A DNA stretch of 64,000 nucleotides from the NCBI GenBank assembly GCA_049287485.1, contig JBAQFX010000232.1:2918-66917 (forward strand), read 5' to 3'. A program made the translations under genes and the position numbers. The notes under the pieces are model-generated. The model had not been told where the DNA came from. It saw only the letters and a list, made by a program, of their open reading frames with translations, and made no database searches. Numbering within the stretch: the first letter of the stretch is position 1; each line of letters opens with the position of its first letter. This DNA is from Anaerolineales bacterium (GTDB taxonomy: Bacteria; Chloroflexota; Anaerolineae; Anaerolineales; UBA4823). This document shows positions 12,214 through 17,448 of the stretch, piece by piece.

Positions 12214-12756
12214 ATGGCAAATACTATCAAGATCAACCGTGCCCCAGTGCTCACTTTGTGGGGTGTTATCGTGGCCGAAAGGCTTGGGTATGACCATGAT
12301 GAAGCCCTGACGTTGGGAAAAGCGGTGGCGGGGTTGAACGCCCAATCCAAAGGCCAGCGCCTGGGCATTTATTCTCCGGCAGAAAAAGAGCTGGATAAGA
12401 AACGCGGCGAGAAAGCTAAAGAGCGCCAGGCAGGAGAGACACTCCTGGTCGAAGTGGTTGGCAGGTCAGTCCCGGTGGTACAAACGGAACACGGGCTGCG
12501 AGCAACGGCAAAGGGTGAAGAAATCGATCCAAAAAGCGTCGAGCGTTACCTGGAGAAGAAGTTTGGCGTATCGCTGGCCGAGACGCAGGCGGCGCTCGAA
12601 GCCCTGGCGCAGGCTTATACGCCCCAAGACCTGGAGCGTGCTGCTTATAGGCTTTACGAGCGCTTCCGCCCTGAGATCCCCGATGGGGTGCGCGGCTGGG
12701 GGGCGGCAGGTGAGCTCAACCTGGAGCGCATCCACAATCTGGCGAAAAAAGGATAA
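12214..12756 (+). CDS. hypothetical protein
   Basis: 180-aa ORF with a strong RBS (AAAGGGAGG) 8 nt upstream. No family recognised. Its last codons overlap the end of the integrase remnant. Confidence 0.6.
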   Translation: MANTIKINRAPVLTLWGVIVAERLGYDHDEALTLGKAVAGLNAQSKGQRLGIYSPAEKELDKKRGEKAKERQAGETLLVEVVGRSVPVVQTEHGLRATAKGEEIDPKSVERYLEKKFGVSLAETQAALEALAQAYTPQDLERAAYRLYERFRPEIPDGVRGWGAAGELNLERIHNLAKKG

Positions 12757-12970
12757 GAAGCAAGGCCTAGTTTTGAGTTGATGCGGCGACTTTTTTCTTG
12801 ACAGCCAAATGGGTGAGAAATTATTCGATCTCTAGGTCTCTCATTTCATTCGGGTGGCGTTTGTTTTGGAACGGGATGTATTGTTTGATCCAATATAGAT
12901 ACGATTTCTCAGTCCGGTATACGTAATTCTTTAACCGCAGCTGATCGCGGACCTAATCAAGGAGTCTTTT
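12745..12970 (-). pseudogene. integron-integrase-like tyrosine recombinase, N-terminal remnant with three in-frame stops, 3' part deleted
   Basis: The minus-strand frame reads KRLLD*VRDQLRLKNYVYRTEKSYLYWIKQYIPFQNKRHPNEMRDLEIE*FLTHLAVKKKVAASTQN*ALLLILF. Stops lie at 12955-12953 (TAG), 12823-12821 (TAA) and 12769-12767 (TAG). There is no frameshift. Homology stops near 12745. Confidence 0.75.
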
Positions 12971-13097
12971 TTTGGTGGATGAATGCCAGCCTCGATGTAT
13001 AATATTTATTAGGCCTGTATATAGATATATATACCGCAAGGTGGCGTGTTATACATTCGTTGAACTAAGCGCTGCATATCAGAAAAAGAGAAAGACC

Positions 13098-13604
13098 ATG
13101 TTGAAAAAAACATCGCTTTTACTGATAACAATTTTCTTATTAGCGTTTCCAGGTTGCCAGTCTACCAAAAATGAAAATTTTTCTATTTATCTTCTTGCTC
13201 AAGATATTCCCGCTACGAAATTATCGCAAGGCGACATCGACCAGTTAATCCTTAAAAGCGAACCTATCATATCCAGCGATGACATTATTTCCTATGACGC
13301 AACCAATCACGTCATGGAACTCACTCAAGCAGCATACACCCGCGTTCAACAAATGCCAGTCAAAGTGGACGGTATTCCCTTTGTGGTTTGTGTTGGTAAC
13401 GAACGCATTTATATTGGTGCTTTATGGACATCAATTTCATCTCTCAGTTACGATGGTGTTGTGATCATACAGCCGGTTGAGGCAAAACCGACAACTGTTC
13501 AAATTGCCTTGGGATATCCCGTATCAGACTTTTTTAAAGGTAGCGACCCAAGAGCAGATTCTAGGATCATCAAAGCCTTAGAACAAGATAAAAAGTTAAA
13601 ATAG
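13098..13604 (+). CDS. cassette 1: hypothetical lipoprotein
   Basis: MLKKTSLLLITIFLLAFPGCQ signal peptide with lipobox. ATG 13098 is used; the track start 12972 is a non-ATG extension into the attI region. Confidence 0.65.
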   Translation: MLKKTSLLLITIFLLAFPGCQSTKNENFSIYLLAQDIPATKLSQGDIDQLILKSEPIISSDDIISYDATNHVMELTQAAYTRVQQMPVKVDGIPFVVCVGNERIYIGALWTSISSLSYDGVVIIQPVEAKPTTVQIALGYPVSDFFKGSDPRADSRIIKALEQDKKLK

Positions 13605-13633
13605 AATGGCTTTGTTGCACCGAAGCAAGCCAC

Positions 13634-13754
13634 CCACAACGTACACCAGACGGGGCTAACGCCCCGCAGGTATTGTGCGCGATTTGGAAGAAATGGCGCG
13701 ATAATATCGAGTAGGTTTGCCAATCCACCCCGCCGGTGACGCAAACCGTTGGAC
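13634..13754 (+). repeat. attC-like recombination site 1
   Basis: 5' CCACAAC-GTACACCAGACGGGG and 3' CCCCGCCGGTGACGCAAACC-GTTGGAC. The ends are imperfectly complementary with unpaired bases. Confidence 0.6.
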
Positions 13755-13783
13755 GGCTGGAGCATTTATGATTGATGTGAAAT

Positions 13784-15914: not shown

Positions 15915-15945
15915 TTGACTTGGAGTCGACTCCAGGTGTTAGACT
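15915..15945 (+). promoter_or_regulatory. MerR-type promoter: -35 TTGACT, 19-nt spacer containing the perfect palindrome TGGAGTCGACTCCA, -10 TAGACT
   Basis: TTGACT at 15915-15920, spacer at 15921-15939 (19 nt), TAGACT at 15940-15945, and the 14-bp dyad at 15921-15934. It sits 62 nt upstream of ORF 16008. Confidence 0.6.
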
Positions 15946-16007
15946 CTCGTTCGAGACAAAGGCGGCAAGCATAAAATACAGCGACACAGCATCAACATAA
16001 GCAGATA

Positions 16008-16394
16008 ATGTTGCAAAATCTAAAATCGGAACAAGAAATAATCAATCTCTCTAAGGAGAAATGGCGCTGGATGTCAGAGCGCAATATAGATTTGCTGGAT
16101 GCTCTATTTCATGAAAAGGCTGTCTTTGTCCATATGGGCGGAAGCATTTCCAAGGAACAGGAACTCGATGTCATCAGAAGTGGCGGGATTCATTACAAGG
16201 ATGTGGATATCCAGGAAGCGTCGGTGCGTTTTATTGGCACGACAACTGCCATCCTTTTGAACAAAATTCGTCTGGTGGCTGTTGTTGGCGGCAATGAAGT
16301 CACCAATCCCTTCATGGTTACAGAAGTGTATGTGCAGCAAAGCGGTACCTGGACGTTAGCCTCACTCTCGTTCACCAGGCTACTTAACCCATAG
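16008..16394 (+). CDS. cassette 4 gene 1: nuclear transport factor 2 (SnoaL/DUF4440-like) family protein
   Basis: 128 aa. The pattern ...EKWRWMSERNIDLLDALFHEKAVFVHMGG...TEVYVQQSGTWTLASLSFTRL is typical of DUF4440/SnoaL-like cone-shaped folds. Confidence 0.55.
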   Translation: MLQNLKSEQEIINLSKEKWRWMSERNIDLLDALFHEKAVFVHMGGSISKEQELDVIRSGGIHYKDVDIQEASVRFIGTTTAILLNKIRLVAVVGGNEVTNPFMVTEVYVQQSGTWTLASLSFTRLLNP

Positions 16395-16430
16395 CGACAC
16401 CATTAACAACAGAAACATAAGGAGATGATT

Positions 16431-17282
16431 ATGCAAGCTGTAAAATTGAACAATGGCGTTGAAATCCCTATTCTTGGCTTCGGCGTTTTTCAAATAACTG
16501 ATTCGTGCGAATGCGAAAACTGCGTGGTTGACGCTATTCAAACTGGATATAGGCACATTGACACGGCCGCTTCTTACCAGAACGAAGAGGCAGTTGGTAG
16601 AGGGATCAAACAAAGCGGTGTTGCAAGAGATAAATTGTTTATCACTACAAAACTTTGGATTCAGAGAAATGGCTATGAAGGCACGCTAAGAGCCTTTGAA
16701 AATTCCCTGAAGCGATTGCAATTAGATTACGTTGACATGTATTTGATTCACCAACCATTCGGCGATGTGTATGGTGAATGGCGCGCGATGGAAGAACTGT
16801 ATCAACAAGGCAAAGTCAGAGCAATCGGGGTTTCAAACTTTCTTCCTGACCGAATCATGGACTTGATGATTCATAACAAAATAACACCTGCGGTAAATCA
16901 GATTGAAGTAAACCCTTTCCATCAGCAAATTGACACACAAAAGTTTTTACAAGATAACAGCGTTCAGGTTGAAGCATGGGCTCCATTTGCAGAGGGAAGG
17001 AATAATATCTTTCAAAATGAATTACTGCTATCAATCGCCGCAAAGCACAAAAAAAGTATTGCCCAGGTAATTCTCCGTTGGCTTGTACAAAGAGGAATTA
17101 TTGCCCTTGCAAAAACAACCCGCAAAGAGCGGATGATAGAAAATATCAGTGTGTTAGATTTTGAATTAAATGCGGAAGATATGGCGGCGATTACAACTTT
17201 AGACACAAAAACCAGTAGATTCTTTGACCATCGTAACCCTGACATGGTGAAATGGCTGGGTGAAAGAAAACTAGATATTTAA
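16431..17282 (+). CDS. cassette 4 gene 2: aldo/keto reductase (2,5-diketo-D-gluconate reductase-like)
   Basis: [30 protein letters not shown] and LIHQP motifs. AAGGAG RBS lies 6 nt before ATG 16431. Confidence 0.8.
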
Positions 17283-17319
17283 CCCCACAGCGAAGGAGGT
17301 CACTTTCAAGCAAAAGGCA

Positions 17320-17448
17320 GGCTAACAAAGCGTGCACCTGATGTTGGGGATTCTGCGGCATTTTCAAGCATTTTTCTGGCTTCGAGTTTTTTCTGCTCCC
17401 AAACAGAGTCCACGCCAGCCCCAGCGCAGATAACACAAGCCGTTGAAG
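17320..17448 (+). repeat. attC-like recombination site 4
   Basis: GGCTAAC-AAA-GCGTGCAC ... GTCCACGCCAGCCCCAGCGCAGATAACACAAGCC-GTTGAAG. The centre is nearly the same as attC2. The array ends 8 nt before the convergent CYTH gene. Confidence 0.6.

What the first reader, a model, noticed from the sequence alone, without database searches (positions are those of the whole stretch)
12745..17448. Degenerate chromosomal integron: intI remnant, candidate attI and four attC-bounded cassettes in a Chloroflexota-like genome
Seen directly in the sequence: (i) The minus-strand frame 12970->12745 translates to KRLLD*VRDQLRLKNYVYRTEKSYLYWIKQYIPFQNKRHPNEMRDLEIE*FLTHLAVKKKVAASTQN*ALLLILF. This aligns position by position with the N-terminal SAM-like domain of integron integrases. 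IntI1, from memory, reads [75 protein letters not shown]. (ii) Divergent from the remnant are four plus-strand ORF blocks, each followed by a 121-130 bp element at 13634-13754, 15018-15139, 15703-15832 and 17320-17448. These elements share a 5' end of the form YYYAAC-A-N2-GCGT(G/C)CAC and a 3' end of the form GT(G/A)ACG(T/C)AA..C-GTT(A/G)... Their centres are variable. Their two ends are imperfectly complementary. Examples are attC1 GTACACCAGACGGGG vs CCCCGCCGGTGACGC, and attC3 CCTAAC/GTTAGC plus CGTGCAC/GTGACG with one unpaired G. (iii) The next start codon lies only 24-30 nt after the GTT core for cassettes 2 and 3. (iv) GTTGAAC (GTTRRRY) at 13059-13065 lies between the remnant and the first ORF, which makes it a candidate attI crossover point. 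(v) The block is AT-richer than its flanks. My spot counts of single 60-nt lines give about 35% GC at 13141 vs about 62% at 10441. This is the canonical integron layout, in which intI is divergent from attI plus cassettes that each end RYYYAAC...GTTRRRY. Here, however, the integrase is dead, so the locus sits between a complete integron and a CALIN. Cargo consists of two lipoproteins (one hydrolase-like), a membrane protein, and an NTF2-like plus aldo/keto reductase pair.
Basis: partly seen in the sequence, partly recalled or inferred. Interest (0 to 1): 0.85.

Follow-up and report, generated by a model that had tools for sequence, protein, structure and literature searches.

The report
Decayed integron in an Anaerolineales genome
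This is the worn-out remains of an integron, a bacterial gene-capture platform, in an uncultured Anaerolineales (Chloroflexota) genome: its recombinase gene is destroyed and its four cassette recombination sites are damaged. It is a real but ordinary example of a known kind of element.

Summary

- **The remnant.** The minus-strand remnant at 12761-12984 is the first ~80 codons of an integron integrase (TIGR02249, E 4e-22; 76% identical to an intact 321-aa IntI). It has a lost start codon, a 1-nt deletion and three Gln-to-stop mutations, and everything after codon ~80 is deleted.
- **The repeats.** The four 121-130-nt repeats are the only copies in 64 kb. They belong to a large attC family: more than 370 copies in 120 fetched genome stretches, about 97 of them labelled Chloroflexota.
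- **The family is real attC.** Its copies form co-oriented arrays, some beside intact intI. The stem covaries. Each cassette's first 7 bases complement its own downstream attC (about 0.9 per position against about 0.55 for shuffled pairs).
- **The attI crossover.** Similarity to relatives' intI-attI stops exactly at GTTG 13059-13062.
- **The window's attCs are eroded.** One lost AAC, one has GAT for GTT plus a 7-nt deletion, one has a broken stem and one has two L' mutations. Three have about half the family's folding energy.
- **Presence/absence.** Five syntenic metagenome relatives lack the whole 6.2-kb block between murI and the CYTH gene.

Verdict: a fossil chromosomal integron, a new member of a known kind, of modest interest.

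The parts
11203..17455 (.). Lineage-specific 6.2-kb block between murI (10331-11248, +) and the CYTH gene (17456-18082, -). It holds an AT-rich spacer, a 180-aa gene, the intI remnant, attI and four cassettes.
   Evidence: In five metagenome relatives (L136, L138, L141, L144, L149) the order is SDR-hydrolase-ACC-BCCP-CYTH-[120-220 nt]-murI-orf-GATase. DNA homology with the window stops at about 11202 and resumes at about 17457-17478. There are no terminal direct or inverted repeats of 8 nt or more.
12214..12756 (+). Conserved 180-aa hypothetical gene. It abuts the intI deletion point and is not an integron part.
   Evidence: It is 100% identical to an Anaerolineales MAG protein, and the best 120 homologues listed are 70-84% identical. 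It has no Pfam hit. Its neighbourhood differs in L131-L134.
12761..12984 (-). intI pseudogene remnant (codons 1 to about 80). Defects: start ATG->ATT, a 1-nt deletion at codon 4, three Gln->stop changes, and the 3' three-quarters deleted.
   Evidence: It is 76% identical to residues 6-80 of the intact 321-aa IntI P0241, with all three stops at Gln positions. It is 77-85% identical at DNA level to L002, L003 and L007 down to 12761. The start codon change and the deletion are seen in alignments A4 and A6.
12985..13062 (.). attI region, with the inferred crossover between G13059 and T13060.
   Evidence: Similarity to L003 and L007 ends at 13062, that is at GTTG. The conserved ...TA GTTGGGC position is seen in 10 integron loci.
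13060..13075 (+). 16 nt (TTGAACTAAGCGCTGC) just after the crossover, identical to the sequence after attI in L002 and L135. Unexplained.
   Evidence: GTTGAAC occurs 0 times among 319 family R' sites.
13060..13748 (+). Cassette 1. Its ORF at 13098-13604 encodes a 168-aa putative lipoprotein with no family hit.
   Evidence: Its start does not complement its own attC (1/7 or fewer), so the 5' boundary is uncertain.
13629..13754 (+). attC e1. The L box and stem are intact and R' is GTTGGAC, but the R'' core AAC is mutated (GCCACCC).
   Evidence: The family HMM gives 27.5 bits, below the 5th percentile. Subfamily relatives in L026, L097 and L115 carry GCCCAAC. Pair table.
13749..15133 (+). Cassette 2. 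Its ORF at 13784-14989 encodes a 401-aa PETase-like alpha/beta hydrolase with a lipoprotein-type signal.
   Evidence: PF12740, E 5.6e-11. A 45%-identical homologue in L088 is itself followed by a family attC. The cassette start complements its own R'' at 5/7 positions.
15018..15139 (+). attC e2. Its R' core is GAT instead of GTT, and 7 nt of the 3' stem arm are deleted.
   Evidence: Fully aligned family cores are AAC/GTT in 315 cases, with a single exception (AAC/GGT). Bottom-strand MFE is -14.7 kcal/mol.
15134..15826 (+). Cassette 3. Its ORF at 15163-15654 encodes a 163-aa multi-pass membrane protein.
   Evidence: The same cassette is in Logan contig L001. The start complements its own R'' at 3/7 positions.
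15703..15832 (+). attC e3. The R and L boxes are intact, but 6 of 11 extended-stem pairs are broken.
   Evidence: 10/16 L-box-plus-stem pairs, while 69% of the family have 16/16. It has 8 departures at 46 conserved columns. MFE is -14.4 kcal/mol.
15827..17442 (+). Cassette 4. It carries two ORFs: DUF4440/SnoaL-like (16008-16394) and an aldo/keto reductase (16425-17282).
   Evidence: PF14534, E 2e-16, and PF00248, E 5e-54. The start complements its own R'' at 5/7 positions.
17320..17448 (+). attC e4. Its sequence is typical of the family (119 bits), but L' carries two G->A changes (GTAACG -> ATAACA). R' is GTTGAAG, 7 nt from the CYTH stop codon.
   Evidence: MFE is -13.0 kcal/mol, against -25.4 for the near-identical L059 copy.

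Best explanation
The locus is a dead, eroding chromosomal integron of the type common in Anaerolineales.

How it worked when alive (established knowledge of integrons): IntI, transcribed leftwards, recombined folded attC hairpins of circular cassettes with attI at G|TT. This stacked promoterless genes rightwards in a single orientation.

What is shown here:
- The integrase gene is destroyed.
- The attI crossover can be located by homology with relatives.
- Four cassettes carry five open genes.
- Each of the four attC sites carries a defect at positions that are almost invariant in the family.
- The block is absent from syntenic relatives.

What is inferred: the array can no longer be rearranged by its own integrase and is very probably frozen. 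Its cargo persists as ordinary chromosomal genes: a lipoprotein, a PETase-like hydrolase, a membrane protein and a DUF4440 plus aldo/keto reductase pair.
For: **The remnant is intI.** It scores 79 bits against TIGR02249 and 21.6 against XerA. It is 76% identical to residues 6-80 of an intact 'integron integrase', P0241. Relatives carry independently frameshifted full-length copies.

**The attI site.** DNA identity of 77-85% to L003 and L007 ends at GTTG 13059-13062.

**The family is real attC.**
- The window model gives 290 hits in 100 loci, and the family HMM gives 372 hits. No locus has hits on both strands, and arrays reach 10 copies per 8 kb.
- In 197 consecutive pairs, a cassette's first 7 bases complement its own R'' at 0.78-0.98 per position. 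Over nine positions the mean is 0.78, against 0.48 for the same element and 0.49 +/- 0.01 for shuffled pairs.
- 23 pairs are 93% paired, with 380 double-change cells against 141 +/- 17 in shuffles and 60 or fewer in slid controls.
- A30 is an invariant bulge, and C24.A223 on the top strand becomes a G.T pair on the bottom strand.
- 182 of 192 cassettes have their longest ORF co-oriented with the attC, and the median cassette is 822 nt.
- Intact IntI sits beside the family: L114 at 467 bits and L045 at 449 bits, against a cut-off of 265.

**Erosion in the window.** See the pair table. Departures at conserved columns are 3, 6, 8 and 6, against a family median of 1 and a 90th percentile of 4. MFE values are -13 to -15 kcal/mol against a family median of -29.3, and only 0.7% of the family is weaker than -15.

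**Empty site.**
Against: - IntegronFinder's own attC covariance model and intI_Cterm profile could not be run.
- Cassette 1 does not fit the model. Its start does not complement e1, and the 16 nt after the crossover equal the sequence after attI in L002 and L135, which have no attC nearby.
- The own-cassette complementarity inside the window is only 5/7, 3/7 and 5/7.
- Only 64 kb of the genome is visible, so an intact IntI elsewhere cannot be excluded.
- No Pc promoter was found.
- The family alignment used for the percentiles holds the 150 best-scoring copies, so it is biased towards well-preserved sites.
- The pattern scan itself required several conserved positions.
Confidence: 0.9

Rival explanations
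1. The array is a CALIN that is still mobilisable. An intact IntI encoded elsewhere in the same genome can excise or reshuffle some of these cassettes, for example cassette 4 between e3 and e4.
For: Intact IntI of the same clade exist in metagenomes. Anaerolineales genomes hold several arrays each, for example contig JASGIA010000002.1 in L022, L058 and L067. e3 keeps its R and L boxes and GTT. e4's two L' changes still allow G.T pairs on the bottom strand. Cury et al. argue that CALIN cassettes may be used in trans (PMC4889954).
Against: Every site has a defect: AAC lost, GAT for GTT, the stem deleted or broken, or L' mutated. The three best candidates fold at about half the family's energy, beyond the family's 99th percentile. 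No other recombinase or attC is present in the 64 kb.
Confidence: 0.1
2. The integron was already dead when a rearrangement moved it here. It was carried with the 180-aa gene and an AT-rich spacer into a variable spot between convergent genes, rather than decaying at its original site.
For: The 6.2-kb block also contains a widely conserved gene that sits in unrelated contexts in relatives. The murI/CYTH junction holds different inserts in L137 and L143. The intI deletion point lies 4 nt after that gene's stop codon.
Against: There is no transposase in the block and there are no terminal repeats. The order of events cannot be read from one genome. This scenario is compatible with the main explanation rather than opposed to it.
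Confidence: 0.3
3. The four repeats are generic intergenic repeats (REP-like elements or terminators) and the recombinase fragment is unrelated to them.
For: Unconstrained folding of e2-e4 is no better than shuffles. No Rfam family exists to test against.
Against: There are only four copies in 64 kb, all in the block. The family shows the circular-cassette signature and lies next to IntI genes. A true REP-like repeat in the window (11788, 49832...) has a different, dispersed distribution.
Confidence: 0.01

Closest known systems
Chromosomal integrons of Xanthomonas with inactivated intI (Gillings et al. 2005, as summarised in PMC8618304)
   Same: A sedentary chromosomal integron whose integrase has been inactivated, which freezes the cassette array.
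   Different: The phylum and the attC family differ. Here intI is reduced to about 80 codons and the attC sites themselves are eroded. Only four cassettes remain.
CALIN elements with a nearby intI pseudogene (Cury et al. 2016, PMC4889954; 15 of 279 CALIN)
   Same: A cluster of attC sites without a working integrase, derived by loss of intI.
   Different: Cury's pseudogene test needs the intI_Cterm region, which is deleted here, so this locus would be scored as a plain CALIN. The attI site is still identifiable.
Complete integrons of Anaerolineales MAGs fetched here (L080: intI plus 9 attC; L114, L045, L016, L038, L116)
   Same: The same attC family, the same divergent intI/attI/cassette layout and the same attI architecture. 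The IntI is of the same family (49-61% identity to the clade of the remnant).
   Different: Those have open 319-339-aa IntI genes and attC sites that pair fully.
Vibrio cholerae repeats (VCR) of the superintegron
   Same: A homogeneous attC family of about 120 nt, conserved over its whole length, forming long hairpins with unpaired bases on the R''-L'' arm.
   Different: The sequence is unrelated. Arrays seen here are smaller (up to about 10 per 8 kb fetched). The L-box irregularity is a GC/A internal loop, which becomes G.T plus an extra C on the bottom strand, rather than the extrahelical G.

Membership tests
Integron (complete) | An intact intI encoding a tyrosine recombinase with the IntI-specific C-terminal region | tested here: not met
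   Only codons 1 to about 80 remain. They carry a lost start codon, a frameshift and three stops. There is no other IntI hit in the window.
Integron (complete) | The remnant derives from an integron integrase rather than another recombinase | tested here: met
   TIGR02249 scores 79 bits against 21.6 for XerA. The remnant is 76% identical to the intact IntI P0241. Relatives L114 and L045 score 467 and 449 bits against a cut-off of 265.
Integron (complete) | An attI site adjacent to intI with a crossover at G|TT | tested here: met
   Homology to relatives ends at GTTG 13059-13062, and the position is conserved in 10 loci. This is inferred by comparison; no recombination was tested.
Integron (complete) | A Pc promoter driving the cassettes | tested here: inconclusive
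   The consensus scan shows no enrichment and no site in attI. A conserved TATAAT at about 12998 lacks a -35 element.
attC site | R'' ...AAC and R' GTT... cores, with L''/L' boxes, in a hairpin with unpaired bases on the R''-L'' arm | tested here: met
   Met at family level. Cores are AAC/GTT in 315 cases, 23 pairs are 93% paired with covariation, and A30 is bulged. In the window, each of e1-e4 fails at least one feature.
attC site | Cassette signature: the bases after GTT at a cassette's start complement that cassette's own R'' | tested here: met
   Over nine positions the family mean is 0.78, against 0.48 for the same element and 0.49 for shuffled pairs. Over the first seven positions it is about 0.9 against about 0.55. 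In the window the counts are 5/7, 3/7 and 5/7, and 1/7 or fewer for cassette 1.
attC site | Detection by IntegronFinder's attC covariance model | not testable with these tools
   The model is not in Rfam, and there were no Rfam hits.
CALIN | At least two attC sites within 4 kb and no functional intI nearby | tested here: met
   Four family attC sites lie 0.6-1.6 kb apart beside a dead intI. This holds only if IntegronFinder would accept the eroded sites.
Sedentary chromosomal integron | Present in all members of the species, or more than 19 attC sites (Cury 2016) | tested here: not met
   There are four sites. The block is absent in five syntenic relatives. It is present in one near-identical strain, L001.

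The most novel reading that the evidence does not exclude
Anaerolineales and their relatives in Chloroflexota carry a large, homogeneous, VCR-like attC family of about 122 nt. Its features are an R box of about 10 bp, an L box with a bottom-strand G.T pair, and an invariant bulged A. The family is not among the published taxon-specific attC models, which cover 11 taxa and none from Chloroflexota (PMC8352920). It forms several arrays per genome.

Under this reading the window is one stage in a natural series of integron death: intact, then frameshifted intI, then truncated intI with eroding attC. That series could be used to time how cassettes become fixed genes. The odd 16 nt after the crossover might mark an IS91-type insertion at attI that was later deleted.
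Probability: 0.4. Interest if true: 0.4.

Novelty: new member of a known kind. Interest (0 to 1): 0.3.

Why it matters
The locus is a clean worked example of how an integron dies. The integrase goes first, then the recombination sites decay, while the captured genes stay open.

It also shows that Anaerolineales, which are abundant in sludge and sediments, hold a big and little-described reservoir of cassettes with their own attC type. That is useful for assigning metagenomic cassettes to hosts. It does not change what is known about how integrons work.

Tried and rejected
- **Unconstrained DNA folding of the eight strands.** It gave no support for hairpins in e2-e4. Comparison with the family later explained this as erosion.
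- **Stand-alone SAM-domain gene.** I briefly considered that the remnant belongs to a family of stand-alone SAM-domain proteins, because the best 120 homologues were all 132 aa or shorter. I rejected this: they are fragments of frameshifted full-length intI, and intact 321-aa members exist.
- **Strand-biased G>A hypermutation.** It was suggested by the three Gln stops and 9 G>A among 22 private changes. The attC departures do not support it (C>T 7, G>A 4). This is ordinary GC-to-AT decay.
- **Promoter and terminator scan.** No enrichment.
- **Rfam and PADLOC.** Nothing found.
- **Synteny through the 180-aa gene.** Relatives share no neighbours. Synteny through the CYTH gene did work.
- **Terminal repeats of the 6.2-kb block.** None.
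- **The 16-nt-plus motif after attI.** It occurs only in L002 and L135 among 215 loci. Two hits in viral contigs are chance matches.
- **Exact-protein look-up of the 180-aa gene.** Not on record.
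Full report
**1. What is in the sequence**

It matches Pfam Phage_int_SAM_4 (E 7.5e-23). In NCBIfam it matches the integron-integrase model TIGR02249 at positions 1-73 of 315 (79 bits), far ahead of the next recombinase model, XerA at 21.6 bits.

The four plus-strand elements align with one another. 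A covariance model built from them finds only these four copies in the 64-kb window. An HMM built solely from relatives in other genomes gives the same answer with all filters off.

The block is AT-richer than its flanks: GC is 0.43-0.46, against 0.51-0.62.

**2. The remnant is a destroyed intI**

The best 120 database homologues of the 75-aa fragment were all 132 aa or shorter. This briefly suggested a stand-alone domain family. Their contigs show instead that they are the first pieces of frameshifted full-length integrases: L002 has 97+214 aa, L003 has 123+83 and L007 has 119+96+83. Intact 321-aa members of the same clade also exist (P0241-P0244, named 'integron integrase' by JGI).

The remnant aligns to residues 6-80 of P0241 at 76% identity, and all three stops fall on Gln codons. 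DNA alignments with L002, L003 and L007 (77-85% identity) show three further defects:
- the start codon is ATT,
- one base is missing at codon 4,
- homology stops at 12761, four bases after the stop codon of an unrelated, conserved 180-aa gene.

About 240 codons of intI are therefore deleted.

**3. The attI site**

Going rightwards, similarity to L003 and L007 ends at 13062, inside GTTG at 13059-13062. In ten integron loci of this group the same position reads TA-GTTGGGC, and the sequences diverge after it.

**4. The repeats are attC sites of a large Chloroflexota family**

The window model hit one copy in L007, directly after a GNAT gene that diverges from L007's intI pseudogene. That cassette's start, GTTGGGCGGC, is the perfect complement of its attC's GCCGCCCAAC.

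About 97 of these are labelled Anaerolineales, Anaerolineae or another Chloroflexota lineage.

In these loci:
- The model found 290 copies in the first 100 loci, and a family HMM found 372 in all sources.
- No locus has copies on both strands.
- Arrays reach up to 10 copies in 8 kb.

The decisive test used 197 consecutive pairs of sites. The seven bases after GTT at the start of a cassette complement the R'' arm of that cassette's own downstream site at 0.78-0.98 per position. Pairing with the R'' of the same element is no better than shuffled pairs: over nine positions the means are 0.78, 0.48 and 0.49 +/- 0.01. This is the footprint of circular cassettes opened at G|TT.

The family also shows the expected structure:
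- an R box, then an unpaired spacer of 4 nt against 6 nt;
- an L box, CGT-GC-AC against GT-A-ACG, whose C.A mismatch on the top strand becomes a G.T pair on the bottom strand;
- an invariant bulged A;
- an 11-bp further stem with strong covariation: 93% of cells are paired, with 380 double-change cells against 141 +/- 17 in shuffles and 60 or fewer in slid controls.

Cassettes have a median length of 822 nt. In 182 of 192 the longest ORF runs in the same direction as the site.

Open IntI genes sit beside such arrays in the same divergent layout. L114 (319 aa) scores 467 bits and L045 (339 aa) scores 449 bits against TIGR02249's cut-off of 265. L080 has an intI next to nine sites.

**5. The window's sites are eroded**

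Mapped onto the family model:
- e1 has lost the AAC core. It reads GCCACCC where its own subfamily has GCCCAAC.
- e2 has GAT for GTT and lacks 7 nt of the 3' stem arm.
- e3 has 6 of 11 stem pairs broken.
- e4 has two G-to-A changes in L'.

At 46 columns conserved in at least 90% of the family, the four carry 3, 6, 8 and 6 departures. The family median is 1 and the 90th percentile is 4.

Bottom-strand folding energies of e2, e3 and e4 are -14.7, -14.4 and -13.0 kcal/mol. The family median is -29.3, and only 0.7% of family members are weaker than -15. This explains why unconstrained folding gave nothing.

Complementarity between cassette start and own R'' in the window is 5/7, 3/7 and 5/7 for cassettes 2-4. 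That lies between the family value and chance.

**6. Cargo**

All five ORFs are open:
- a 168-aa putative lipoprotein with no family hit;
- a PETase-like alpha/beta hydrolase, whose 45%-identical homologue in L088 is itself a cassette;
- a 163-aa membrane protein;
- a DUF4440/SnoaL-like protein;
- an aldo/keto reductase related to DkgA.

None matches a defence-system model.

**7. Host and presence/absence**

The 180-aa gene is identical to a protein of an Anaerolineales MAG on an 82-kb contig. A near-identical strain in SRR28041695 has the same cassettes 3 and 4 next to CYTH.

Five metagenome relatives keep the order SDR-hydrolase-ACC-BCCP-CYTH, then only 120-220 nt, then murI-orf-GATase. They have no attC or IntI hit. 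Their proteins are 66-95% identical to the window's, and their DNA is 72-77% identical over the flanking genes. The window has 6.2 kb at that spot. Two other relatives carry different inserts there. The block has no terminal repeats and no transposase.

**8. What remains unexplained**

The 16 nt after the crossover (TTGAACTAAGCGCTGC) are identical to the sequence after attI in L002 and L135. Those two loci have no attC nearby and carry an IS91-type transposase with a second recombinase. GTTGAAC is never a cassette start in the family (0 of 319). Cassette 1 fails the complementarity test.

A deleted IS91-type insertion at the GAAC of attI would explain all three facts, but I found no further copy of that end. 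This is speculation.

**9. Comparison with what is known**

Integrons in Chloroflexi/Chloroflexota are on record (PMC4889954, PMC8618304). So are arrays beside intI pseudogenes (15 of 279 CALIN; PMC4889954) and frozen arrays after integrase inactivation in Xanthomonas (PMC8618304). The published taxon-specific attC models cover 11 taxa, none from Chloroflexota (PMC8352920). I found no paper on this attC family in the library.

**Verdict**

The finding is real and correctly interpreted. It is a new member of a known kind, with modest added value as a well-documented fossil and as a pointer to an Anaerolineales attC family.

Noticed in passing
window 15915-15945: TTGACT, a 19-nt spacer, then TAGACT, with a perfect 14-nt palindrome TGGAGTCGACTCCA (15921-15934) inside the spacer. 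It lies upstream of the DUF4440 plus aldo/keto reductase pair in cassette 4. This looks like a MerR-type regulated promoter, but no regulator gene is in the cassette.
   Followed up: no
window 18175-18247: Three tandem 24-nt units, GGTCACCTGCACGATTTTTGTGCG (97% match), upstream of the CYTH gene. Each has an internal GCAC...GTGC dyad. They may be operator sites.
   Followed up: partly
window 11788-11864, 49832-49928, 20516-20551, 1309-1341(-): A dispersed hairpin-forming repeat, GGTAATTAC(T/A)CAC(G/A)CCCC..ACCCCT ... GGGGGAGGGGAAAT. It is REP-like and unrelated to the attC family.
   Followed up: partly
L002, L003-L006, L007-L010 and the proteins: The closest relatives of the remnant are mostly independently frameshifted intI genes in Anaerolineae and cyanobacteria. 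All of the best 120 hits were fragments of 132 aa or shorter. Integrase decay seems frequent in this clade.
   Followed up: partly
L135 1-2220 and L002 1-120: An intact IntI whose attI is followed by a hairpin, a second tyrosine recombinase (in fragments) and an IS91/Y2 transposase, not by a cassette. This may be an IS91-family insertion at the GAAC of attI.
   Followed up: partly
L026, L068, L117, L054, L013, L043 and others: Copies of the Anaerolineales-type attC occur on contigs of MAGs labelled Nitrospirae (72 kb), Chlorobiaceae, Saprospiraceae, the archaeon Nitrosotenuis and others. These are either mis-binned contigs or cross-phylum cassette spread.
   Followed up: no
L130 2363-4909 and L036 1181-4226: In two loci the attC sites lie downstream of intI rather than upstream of its start. 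In L130 they are on the same strand as intI, and in L036 on the opposite strand. Both differ from the divergent layout.
   Followed up: no
window 41000-47000: A second low-GC stretch (0.41-0.48) with positive GC skew. It has no attC hits and was not examined further.
   Followed up: no
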